DNA from: an uncultured Bacteriovoracaceae bacterium
GTDB taxonomy: Bacteria; Bdellovibrionota; UBA2394
DNA length: 64,000 nucleotides
Assembly: GCA_964601045.1 (NCBI GenBank)
Contig: CAZRLF010000003.1
Span: 80,210 to 144,209 of the forward strand
Reading direction: 5' to 3'
Positions 38,858-38,982 of this stretch are shown piece by piece. A model generated the notes under the pieces. That model saw only the letters and a program-made list of their open reading frames with translations, was not told the origin of the DNA and searched no databases. A program made the position numbers and the translations under genes. Positions within the stretch are counted from its first letter, which is position 1. Each line of letters begins with the position of its first letter.

Positions 38858-38982
38858 CAAAAACTATGCCAAAAACGGTGGTGACTATAGCAATGCTATA
38901 CTTTTTTCCAGTGGCCTTGTTGGGAACTATAGCTATGCGATACTCGGACTGAAAGCGACAGAGTAAAAACTATAGCATAGAC
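38858..38982. repeat. Four direct repeats with 42-bp periodicity carrying palindromic TATAGC/GCTATA cores
   Basis: AAACTATGCC (38858), tgACTATAGCaatGCTATAc (38881), gaACTATAGCTATgcgatac (38923) and aaACTATAGCatag (38965). They lie in the 177-bp gap immediately upstream of the B1 start. Confidence 0.5.

What the first reader, a model, noticed from the sequence alone, without database searches (positions are those of the whole stretch)
38858..38982. Four 42-bp-spaced palindromic TATAGC repeats upstream of the B1-A2 operon
The 177-bp gap directly upstream of the B1 start codon contains four direct repeats at a regular 42-bp (four helical turns) spacing. Two are internally palindromic (TATAGC-aat-GCTATA and TATAGCTATA). 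Regularly phased, same-face palindromic sites are characteristic of cooperative transcription-factor binding arrays or iterons. I did not see this motif at other promoters in the window by eye.
Basis: seen in the sequence. Interest (0 to 1): 0.5.

Follow-up and report, generated by a model that had tools for sequence, protein, structure and literature searches.

The report
Sigma-54 promoter with three upstream sites
The "four repeats" are a textbook sigma-54 promoter for the B1-A2 operon plus three evenly spaced upstream sites that probably dock its activator protein, which is an ordinary kind of bacterial gene switch in front of an unusual secreted enzyme gene.

Summary
The repeat cluster is real but was misdescribed. 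ACTATAGC occurs exactly three times in the 64-kb window. All three copies lie in the 177-bp gap upstream of B1 (38884, 38926, 38969), spaced 42 and 43 bp apart. The claimed fourth copy (ACTATGCC, 38863) is only 21 bp from its neighbour. Read on the coding (minus) strand it is TTGGCATAGTTTTTGCA, a consensus sigma-54 -24/-12 promoter (GG-N10-GC) whose -12 C lies 37 nt upstream of the B1 GTG. The exact pattern TGGCAY-N5-TTGCA occurs 7 times in the window against 0.06 expected, each time just upstream of a gene and pointing towards it. Two of the three repeats are dyads: TATAGCAaTGCTATA is perfect and TATAGCtatGCgATA has one half-site mismatch. No other copy with one mismatch or fewer exists in the window. 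My best reading is a sigma-54 promoter with three in-phase enhancer sites at about -48, -90 and -132 for a dedicated enhancer-binding protein, comparable to NorR or NtrC. The promoter call is strong. The activator assignment is inferred: no such gene lies in the window, and no orthologous locus exists to test conservation. The iteron, dispersed-repeat and structured-RNA readings are not supported. This is a new member of a known kind, of modest interest.

The parts
38856..38872 (-). Proximal sigma-54 promoter of B1-A2: TTGGCATAGTTTTTGCA. GG is at 38870/38869 and GC at 38858/38857.
   Evidence: Exact match to TGGCAY-N5-TTGCA, which has 7 hits in the window against 0.06 expected. It scores 10/12 against the general consensus. 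The -12 C is 37 nt upstream of the GTG, in gene orientation.
38884..38902 (-). Site c (proximal), AGTATAGCATTGCTATAGT, containing the perfect 15-bp dyad TATAGCAaTGCTATA (38886-38900). Its centre is at about -48 from the inferred start site.
   Evidence: 0 mismatches; no other such copy in the window.
38926..38944 (-). Site b (middle), AGTATCGCATAGCTATAGT, an imperfect dyad TATAGCtatGCgATA (38928-38942). Its centre is at about -90, 42 bp from site c.
   Evidence: 83% identity to c over 24 nt; 1 mismatch.
38969..38980 (-). Site a (distal), CTATGCTATAGT. It has the right half-site GCTATAGT only (core 38969-38976), at about -132, 43 bp from site b.
38974..38990 (-). Weaker, second sigma-54-like element TTGGCAAAGTCTATGCT (GG-N10-GC, 9/12) overlapping site a. 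Its status is uncertain.
   Evidence: score 9; hits of score 9 or more are only about 1.7-fold enriched. It is 65% identical to the proximal promoter over 23 nt (family D1).
38821..38845 (-). Inferred 5' UTR of about 25 nt, with the start site near 38845 and GGAG at 38837-38840 within a purine-rich stretch.
   Evidence: Inferred from the usual position of the start site about 12 nt downstream of the -12 GC. Sequence. Not measured.
36148..38820 (-). B1 coding sequence: 890 aa, GTG start, signal peptide, N-terminal domain with a CCA-adding-enzyme-like nucleotidyltransferase fold, variable C-terminus.
33242..36148 (-). A2 coding sequence (968 aa). Its start overlaps the B1 stop by 1 nt, so it is in the same operon.
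38998..39912 (-). Upstream 304-aa ORFan gene with a signal-peptide-like N-terminus. No terminator follows it, so read-through into the array is possible.
39976..39992 (-). Sigma-54 promoter of the 304-aa gene, TTGGCACGAATATTGCA (12/12 to consensus).

Best explanation
The 177-bp gap holds a sigma-54 (RpoN)-dependent promoter for the B1-A2 operon. It reads TTGGCATAGTTTTTGCA on the minus strand at 38872-38856, and the inferred start site is near 38845. Upstream of it lie three copies of GCTATAGT, 42 and 43 bp apart (four helical turns). The two nearest the promoter are dyad-symmetric sites of 15-19 bp. I propose that these three sites are the enhancer (upstream activator sequence) for one dedicated bacterial enhancer-binding protein. 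Dimers bound on the same face of the DNA at about -48, -90 and -132 would assemble into the active AAA+ hexamer. The hexamer would contact the closed sigma-54 holoenzyme complex and use ATP to open it, switching on B1 and A2.

Shown: the sequence elements, their statistics, their positions and their orientation. Inferred: that sigma-54 is used, the position of the start site, that a protein binds the sites, and that this protein is an enhancer-binding protein.
For: Promoter:
- GG-N10-GC spacing with TGGCA and TTGCA.
- The exact pattern TGGCAY-N5-TTGCA has 7 hits against 0.06 +/- 0.24 in dinucleotide shuffles. All seven lie in intergenic DNA or at the 5' edge of an ORF and point at the downstream gene.
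- Hits of 10/12 or better number 11 against 2.2 +/- 1.4; hits of 11/12 or better number 7 against 0.28.
- The -12 element lies 37 nt upstream of the GTG.
- No sigma-70 -35/-10 promoter was found in 38600-39200.
- The lineage encodes RpoN: bd0843 in B. bacteriovorus (PMC3464611) and rpoN in Bacteriovorax marinus (PMC3526173). B1 relatives are annotated Bdellovibrionia.

Sites:
- All three ACTATAGC copies in the window are here.
- The dyad with one mismatch or fewer occurs only at sites c and b.
- b and c match at 20 of 24 positions while the spacers between them are unrelated, and no tandem repeat is detected. This points to selection on the sites rather than a recent duplication.
- A perfect 7+7 dyad suits a dimeric helix-turn-helix protein.
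- All sites lie upstream of the -24 element, which suits an activator.

Precedent:
- Enhancers are usually 80-150 bp upstream, and NorR uses three enhancer sites to build a hexamer from bound dimers (PMC4987338).
- In Desulfovibrio vulgaris the largest fraction of sigma-54 promoters lies within 100 nt of the closest enhancer-binding-protein site (PMC4641369).
Against: - No gene with a sigma-54 activation domain lies in the 64-kb window, so the cognate protein is unidentified.
- The presence of rpoN in this particular genome could not be checked, because the source genome is not in the searchable collections.
- No orthologous locus exists for a conservation test. The 304-aa neighbour is an ORFan, and the best B1 relatives are 45-54% identical over the N-terminal half only, without synteny.
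- Site c at about -48 is closer to the promoter than classical enhancers.
- Site a is only a half-site.
- Identical dyads serve as operators for other regulator types in other bacteria: a TetR regulator, and a CI/Cro-type pair. The motif itself therefore does not identify an enhancer-binding protein.
- TGCTATAGT in sites a and c also reads as an extended -10 sigma-70 element.
Confidence: 0.5

Rival explanations
1. The three sites are operators for an ordinary dimeric helix-turn-helix regulator, such as a TetR, XRE/CI-like or MarR type protein. It would act as a repressor or a conventional activator. It could control read-through from the upstream sigma-54 promoter at 39976-39992, or a sigma-70 promoter, or it could interfere with the sigma-54 promoter. 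It would not be an AAA+ enhancer-binding protein.
For: The two-site scan of reference genomes found the same dyad, including the exact TATAGCAATGCTATA, in operator triplets in two other settings. One is next to a TetR gene upstream of a short-chain dehydrogenase gene in many Paenibacillus. The other is between a divergent S24-peptidase repressor and a Cro/YdaS-like gene in a Methylotenera contig. No enhancer-binding-protein gene lies in the window. No terminator follows the 304-aa gene, so read-through control is conceivable.
Against: Those operators are spaced about 23-24 bp centre to centre and overlap a -10 element. Here the spacing is 42-43 bp and all sites lie upstream of the -24 element, a poor position for repression. 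A sigma-54 promoter by definition needs an AAA+ activator, and these are the only conspicuous candidate sites upstream of it.
Confidence: 0.2
2. The GCTATAGT repeats are tandem extended -10 sigma-70 promoters (TGCTATAGT at sites a and c). They would give basal or alternative transcription of B1-A2 from upstream of the sigma-54 promoter. A regulator might bind over them, as NtrC does at E. coli glnAp1/glnAp2 (that comparison is from my own knowledge).
For: TGCTATAGT is TGn plus a 5/6 match to TATAAT, with A2 and T6 kept. It occurs twice on the coding strand in this gap, and these are 2 of only 5 such intergenic matches in the window.
Against: No -35 partner is present, and the sigma-70 scan found no promoter in 38600-39200. 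Site b lacks the TG. The dyad symmetry of c and b and their 42-bp phasing are not explained by promoter function. Other gaps in the window do not use this element.
Confidence: 0.1
3. The array is non-functional debris. Local duplications of a promoter-like segment have decayed, and the resemblance to binding sites is incidental.
For: Site a and the promoter share ATAGTTTTT and are 74% identical over 23 nt (family D1). A second, weaker sigma-54-like element overlaps site a. No conservation data are available.
Against: Similarity is confined to the 20-bp sites, with unrelated spacers and preserved phase. Site c is a perfect 7+7 dyad, which has about a 6e-5 chance per position. Three exact 8-mers in 177 bp arose in 30 of 30000 simulations.
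Confidence: 0.1
4. The repeats are iterons of a replication origin, copies of a dispersed repeat (REP or MITE-like), or a structured RNA element in the 5' leader.
Against: - No replication, partition or transposase gene is nearby.
- The motif has no other copy in the window.
- No paired-site locus was found in any Bdellovibrionota reference genome.
- There is no Rfam match.
- Folding energy is no better than shuffled sequence on either strand, with z-scores of -0.70 and +1.06.
- No tandem repeat was detected.
Confidence: 0.04

Closest known systems
NorR enhancer at the E. coli norVW sigma-54 promoter
   Same: Three activator sites upstream of a sigma-54 promoter. Dimers bound to the three sites assemble the hexamer, and all three sites are required (PMC4987338). 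The regulator is dedicated to a single locus.
   Different: The NorR half-sites are GT-N7-AC, an unrelated sequence. Here the third site is only a half-site, the spacing is 42-43 bp, and the regulator and its signal are unknown.
NtrC enhancer at E. coli glnAp2
   Same: Dyad-symmetric sites lie in helical phase upstream of a sigma-54 promoter. Weaker sites extend close to the promoter, and the sites overlap a sigma-70 promoter (from my own knowledge). This parallels the TGCTATAGT extended -10-like reading of sites a and c.
   Different: The NtrC site is TGCACC-N5-GGTGCA with about 32-bp spacing at -140 and -108. Here the operon encodes secreted proteins of unknown function and has no link to nitrogen metabolism.
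Predicted enhancer sites of the Desulfovibrio vulgaris sigma-54 regulome (PMC4641369)
   Same: A sigma-54 promoter paired with a nearby palindromic site, including AT-rich ones. The largest fraction of promoters lies within 100 nt of the closest site.
   Different: Those predictions rest on conservation across genomes and on co-located activator genes. Neither is available here.
Operator triplets TATAGC-N3-GCTATA (a TetR locus in Paenibacillus; a CI/Cro-type divergent pair in a Methylotenera contig)
   Same: The dyad is the same, identical in some copies, and occurs in threes.
   Different: The spacing is about 23-24 bp and the sites overlap a sigma-70 -10 element. The hosts are unrelated, and the sites act as repressor operators rather than sitting upstream of a sigma-54 promoter.

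Membership tests
Sigma-54 (-24/-12) promoter | GG and GC dinucleotides separated by exactly 10 nt, within TGGCA(C/T) and TTGC(A/T) | tested here: met
   TTGGCATAGTTTTTGCA at 38872-38856 on the minus strand.
Sigma-54 (-24/-12) promoter | More frequent than chance, and placed upstream of genes in their orientation | tested here: met
   7 exact matches against 0.06 expected. All are gene-proximal and correctly oriented. This one lies 37 nt upstream of the B1 GTG.
Sigma-54 (-24/-12) promoter | The organism encodes RpoN | not testable with these tools
   The source genome is absent from the collections. Relatives have rpoN (PMC3464611, PMC3526173).
Sigma-54 (-24/-12) promoter | Transcription starts about 12 nt downstream of the GC and depends on rpoN | not testable with these tools
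   This needs 5'-end mapping and genetics.
Enhancer (upstream activator sequence) of a bacterial enhancer-binding protein | Dyad-symmetric sites upstream of a sigma-54 promoter, within about 30-200 bp | tested here: met
   Sites c and b are dyads centred at about -48 and -90. Site a, at about -132, is a half-site.
Enhancer (upstream activator sequence) of a bacterial enhancer-binding protein | Multiple sites on one face of the helix | tested here: met
   Spacings of 42 and 43 bp, about 4 turns. With only two intervals this is weak statistical support.
Enhancer (upstream activator sequence) of a bacterial enhancer-binding protein | A cognate AAA+ activator with a DNA-binding domain, often encoded nearby | tested here: not met
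   No Sigma54_activat domain was found in any ORF of 100 aa or more that was scanned in the window. The rest of the genome was not available.
Enhancer (upstream activator sequence) of a bacterial enhancer-binding protein | Sites conserved at orthologous promoters or shared within a regulon | tested here: inconclusive
   No orthologous locus exists. There is no second copy in the window, no Bdellovibrionota hit in the reference genomes, and the metagenome scan gave only chance hits.
Iterons of a replication origin | Direct repeats of 17-22 bp at about 22-bp spacing, next to a rep gene, an AT-rich unwinding region and DnaA boxes | tested here: not met
   The spacing is 42-43 bp. The neighbours are secreted ORFan proteins with no replication gene.
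Dispersed repeat (REP or MITE-like) | Many copies in unrelated intergenic regions | tested here: not met
   No other copy in the 64 kb. The whole genome was not testable.
Structured cis-regulatory RNA | A stable or conserved fold, or a match to a known RNA family | tested here: not met
   Z-scores of -0.70 and +1.06. No Rfam hit in the gap.
Extended -10 sigma-70 promoter | TGnTATAAT-like element in gene orientation | tested here: inconclusive
   TGCTATAGT is present at sites a and c. There is no -35 element and no hit in the two-hexamer scan. Function was not testable.

The most novel reading that the evidence does not exclude
An uncultivated member of the Bdellovibrionia, a class known for predatory bacteria, places a whole neighbourhood of secreted orphan proteins under sigma-54 control. 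These include a secreted enzyme related to tRNA CCA-adding enzymes that belongs to a massively expanded family with variable C-termini. The B1-A2 operon would have its own private activator, reading a three-site, four-turn-phased enhancer that templates the hexamer at unusually short range (-48 to -132). If so, the deployment of candidate predation effectors would be gated promoter by promoter through dedicated AAA+ activators.
Probability: 0.3. Interest if true: 0.55.

Novelty: new member of a known kind. Interest (0 to 1): 0.35.

Why it matters
The promoter-plus-enhancer layout itself is standard bacterial biology. Its value lies in the context. Seven consensus sigma-54 promoters sit in front of large, secreted, uncharacterised proteins within about 30 kb of a Bdellovibrionia genome. 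This gives a concrete, testable regulatory handle on genes that otherwise have no annotation at all. The B1 dyad is unique in the window, so it is a clean bait for finding the regulator and the signal that switches on a secreted nucleotidyltransferase-like protein. For genome annotation it also shows that several mechanically called ORF starts here overshoot the true start, because the promoter lies inside the called ORF.

Tried and rejected
- **Orthologous loci for a conservation test.** A B1 query of the reference genomes found nothing. B1 homologues are only paralogue-like, 45-54% identical over the N-terminal half. Their contigs (L001-L005) show no synteny, no GCTATAGT array and no good sigma-54 promoter. 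The 304-aa neighbour is an ORFan. The one Logan contig carrying it is identical to the window and ends after site b.
- **Source genome look-up.** Not on record for B1 or B2.
- **Two-dyad pattern scan of reference genomes.** 31 hits, none in Bdellovibrionota. They turned out to be unrelated operators.
- **Metagenome scan with GCTATAGT plus a sigma-54 promoter.** The pattern was too loose. 
- **RNA readings.** No Rfam match and no folding signal.
- **Tandem-repeat reading.** Tandem Repeats Finder found nothing.
- **IHF site.** No match to WATCAANNNNTTR with one mismatch or fewer in the gap.
- **Shared motif with the paralogue promoters.** The regions upstream of B2 and A1 do not carry the motif.
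- **Regulator in the window.** No sigma-54 activator domain was found.

Full report
**1. What is in the sequence**

The flagged region is the 177-bp gap 38821-38997. It lies between the stop of a 304-aa ORF (38998-39912) and the GTG start of B1 (36148-38820). A2 (33242-36148) overlaps the B1 stop by one base. All these genes are on the minus strand.

The 8-mer ACTATAGC occurs three times in the whole 64-kb window on both strands, all in this gap, at 38884, 38926 and 38969. The hexamers TATAGC and CTATAG and one-mismatch variants of the 8-mer are at chance frequency elsewhere.

The spacings are 42 and 43 bp.

- Site c (38886-38900) is the perfect 15-bp palindrome TATAGCAATGCTATA.
- Site b (38928-38942) is TATAGCTATGCGATA, with one half-site mismatch.
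- These two are the only matches with one mismatch or fewer in the window.
- Site a (38969-38976) keeps only one half-site.
- Sites b and c match at 20 of 24 positions, but the 22-bp spacers between sites are unrelated and Tandem Repeats Finder sees no array.

In simulation, three non-overlapping copies of any 8-mer arose in 30 of 30000 Markov-1 sequences of this length and composition. The cluster is therefore real and non-random, but the description needs correcting.

**2. The "fourth repeat" is a sigma-54 promoter**

Read on the coding strand, it is TTTTTGGCATAGTTTTTGCACT. This has GG-N10-GC within TGGCAT-N5-TTGCA, the -24/-12 consensus of sigma-54 promoters.

- The -12 C (38857) is 37 nt upstream of the GTG. 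This would put the start site near 38845 and leave a leader of about 25 nt containing GGAG and a purine-rich stretch. The start site is inferred, not measured.
- The exact pattern TGGCAY-N5-TTGCA occurs 7 times in the window against 0.06 +/- 0.24 in dinucleotide-preserving shuffles.
- With a looser 12-position consensus, hits of 10/12 or better number 11 against 2.2 +/- 1.4, and hits of 11/12 or better number 7 against 0.28.
- All seven exact matches lie in intergenic DNA or at the very 5' edge of a mechanically called ORF, and each points at the downstream gene:
  - 39976-39991, a perfect 12/12, before the 304-aa gene.
  - The divergent pair 45504-45519 / 45714-45729.
  - The divergent pair 57816-57831 / 57993-58008.
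  - 28150-28165.
  - The one before B1.
- A weaker version (CTGGTAGAGGACTTGCT) precedes the B1 paralogue B2.
- The sigma-70 two-hexamer scan finds nothing in 38600-39200.

On taxonomy, the B1 family hits are annotated Bdellovibrionia or Bdellovibrionota. That lineage encodes RpoN: bd0843 in B. bacteriovorus HD100 (PMC3464611) and rpoN in Bacteriovorax marinus (PMC3526173). I could not check the source genome itself, because it is not in the searchable collections.

**3. What the three remaining sites most likely are**

A sigma-54 holoenzyme cannot open DNA without an AAA+ enhancer-binding protein. Such proteins normally bind dyad sites upstream of the promoter and oligomerise into a hexamer. 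Enhancers are usually 80-150 bp upstream, and NorR uses three sites, all required, to assemble a hexamer from bound dimers (PMC4987338). In Desulfovibrio vulgaris the largest fraction of sigma-54 promoters lies within 100 nt of the closest predicted activator site, and AT-rich palindromes are among those sites (PMC4641369).

Sites c, b and a are centred at about -48, -90 and -132. All are upstream of the -24 element and four helical turns apart. Site c is two turns (21 bp) from the matching register inside the promoter. Sequence similarity is confined to the sites themselves, with the phase preserved.

This is the anatomy expected of an enhancer for a dedicated activator. Because the motif is unique in the window, that activator would be different from whatever serves the other six promoters.

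I put the promoter call at roughly 0.85-0.9, "the sites bind a protein" at about 0.7, and "that protein is an enhancer-binding protein" at about 0.5.

**4. Weak points**

- No ORF in the window has a sigma-54 activation domain. The only regulators seen are a histidine kinase (24463-26211), a stand-alone receiver (23847-24233) and an XRE/cupin protein (3277-3852).
- No conservation test was possible.
  - The 304-aa neighbour is an ORFan.
  - B1 has no ortholog, only family members 45-54% identical over the N-terminal half.
  - The five related contigs I fetched have no synteny, no such array and no convincing sigma-54 promoter in front of family genes.
- Site c is closer to the promoter than classical enhancers, and site a is only a half-site.
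- A second, weaker sigma-54-like element (TTGGCAAAGTCTATGCT, 38990-38974, 9/12) overlaps site a. Matches of score 9 or more are only about 1.7-fold enriched, so I leave it as uncertain.

**5. Rivals**

- **(a) An ordinary helix-turn-helix regulator.**
  - A scan of reference genomes for two such dyads 20-35 bp apart gave 31 hits, none from Bdellovibrionota.
  - The hits include operator triplets of the same dyad, in some copies the identical TATAGCAATGCTATA.
  - In many Paenibacillus they lie next to a TetR gene upstream of a short-chain dehydrogenase gene. In a Methylotenera contig they lie between a divergent S24-peptidase repressor and a Cro/YdaS-like gene.
  - The dyad is therefore a generic docking site for dimeric regulators and does not by itself identify the protein family.
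  - Those arrays are spaced about 23-24 bp and overlap a -10 element, unlike this one.
- **(b) Extended -10 sigma-70 promoters.** TGCTATAGT occurs at sites a and c. There is no -35 element, site b lacks the TG, and this reading does not explain the dyads.
- **(c) Decayed duplicates of the promoter.** Site a and the promoter share ATAGTTTTT. A perfect 7+7 dyad and unrelated spacers argue for selection on the sites.
- **(d) Iterons, a dispersed repeat, or a structured RNA.** There is no replication gene nearby, no other copy in the window, no Rfam hit, and folding z-scores are -0.70 and +1.06.

**6. Context noticed on the way**

B1 and B2 share a conserved N-terminal domain of about 460 aa (53% identity). 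The domain has invariant GGT..., D108 and D110 residues.

A model built on 36 sequences has pLDDT 92 and pTM 0.88. Its best matches are class II CCA-adding enzymes and tRNA nucleotidyltransferases, with probability 1.0, E-value about 1e-4 and TM-score about 0.3-0.39.

With a signal peptide, variable C-termini and large tandem paralogue arrays in Bdellovibrionia genome bins, this looks like an expanded family of secreted nucleotidyltransferase-fold proteins. That is what this promoter controls.

**7. Verdict**

The feature is a new member of a known kind, a sigma-54 promoter with upstream activator sites. It is of modest interest in itself (0.35). It is somewhat more interesting as an entry point to the regulation of orphan secreted proteins in this Bdellovibrionia genome.

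Noticed in passing
window 28150-28165(+), 38856-38871(-), 39976-39991(-), 45504-45519(-), 45714-45729(+), 57816-57831(-), 57993-58008(+): Seven exact TGGCAY-N5-TTGCA sigma-54 promoters against 0.06 expected. Each precedes a gene, mostly large secreted proteins with no family assignment. Two sets form divergent promoter pairs.
   Followed up: partly
window 36148-38820(-) B1 and 52872-55322(-) B2: The conserved N-terminal domain of about 460 aa in the B family models confidently (pLDDT 92). It matches class II CCA-adding enzyme / tRNA nucleotidyltransferase folds and has invariant GGT and DxD motifs. The proteins carry a signal peptide and variable C-termini. There are hundreds of paralogues, often in tandem arrays, in Bdellovibrionia genome bins (L001, L002). 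There is no Pfam, NCBIfam or PDB sequence hit.
   Followed up: partly
window 42419-45508(-), 45718-50955(+), 55467-57827(-): The sigma-54 promoters at 45504, 45714 and 57816 lie inside the 5' ends of the mechanically listed ORFs, so the true starts are further downstream. For the 1029-aa gene the next ATG is only about 14 nt after the -12 element, which would make the mRNA nearly leaderless.
   Followed up: no
window 28138-28177(+): A perfect 14-bp inverted repeat (AGGTCATAAGACTG / CAGTCTTATGACCT) encloses the sigma-54-like site TGGCATAGGTTTTGCA, which is 15/16 identical to the B1 promoter. About 180 nt without a listed ORF follow before the next gene (28344). This could be a small RNA gene or a regulated promoter.
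   Followed up: no
window 45603-45626, 45657-45680, 57870-57876(-): The two divergent sigma-54 promoter regions share an AGGGGGC..AAAA-type motif. The 57828-58033 region also has the dyad TTTGACG-N12-CGTCAAA. These may be enhancer sites for other activators. Some AGGGGGC copies elsewhere are ribosome-binding sites.
   Followed up: partly
window 55411-55439(-) and 55357-55373(-): Upstream of B2 there is a terminator-like hairpin (13-bp arms, 92% complementary, followed by a T-rich stretch). After it comes a weaker sigma-54-like element, CTGGTAGAGGACTTGCT, whose -12 C lies 50 nt upstream of the listed B2 start. A similar TTGGTAGCGCACTTGCG precedes a B-family gene in L005 at about 3105-3121.
   Followed up: no
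window 28884-31541(-) A1 and 33242-36148(-) A2; 40077-41657(-): A1 and A2 share an N-terminal region of about 480 aa (41% identity) with different C-termini. Three adjacent proteins of about 170 aa (40077-40574, 40582-41109, 41127-41657) are paralogues of one another. None has a family assignment.
   Followed up: no
L008-L037 (for example L008 5332-5393, L012 4516-4578, L007 4-66): Triplets or pairs of the dyad TATAGC-N3-GCTATA are conserved in many Paenibacillus, next to a TetR gene and upstream of a short-chain dehydrogenase gene, with the middle site overlapping TGCTATAAT. In a Methylotenera contig they lie between a divergent S24-repressor gene and a Cro-like gene, and similar pairs occur in other betaproteobacterial contigs (L007, L032). 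Robiginitomaculum and related alphaproteobacterial contigs carry short tandem arrays of TATAGCGAAGCGATA.
   Followed up: partly
L006 (Logan SRR15237806, 1458 bp): This is the only other record of the 304-aa ORFan. It is identical to the window and ends right after site b (window 38921), so it gives no independent information on the array.
   Followed up: yes
window 29498 and 29540(+): Two TATAGC hexamers 42 bp apart lie inside the A1 coding region. Given the chance-level hexamer count this is probably coincidence.
   Followed up: no
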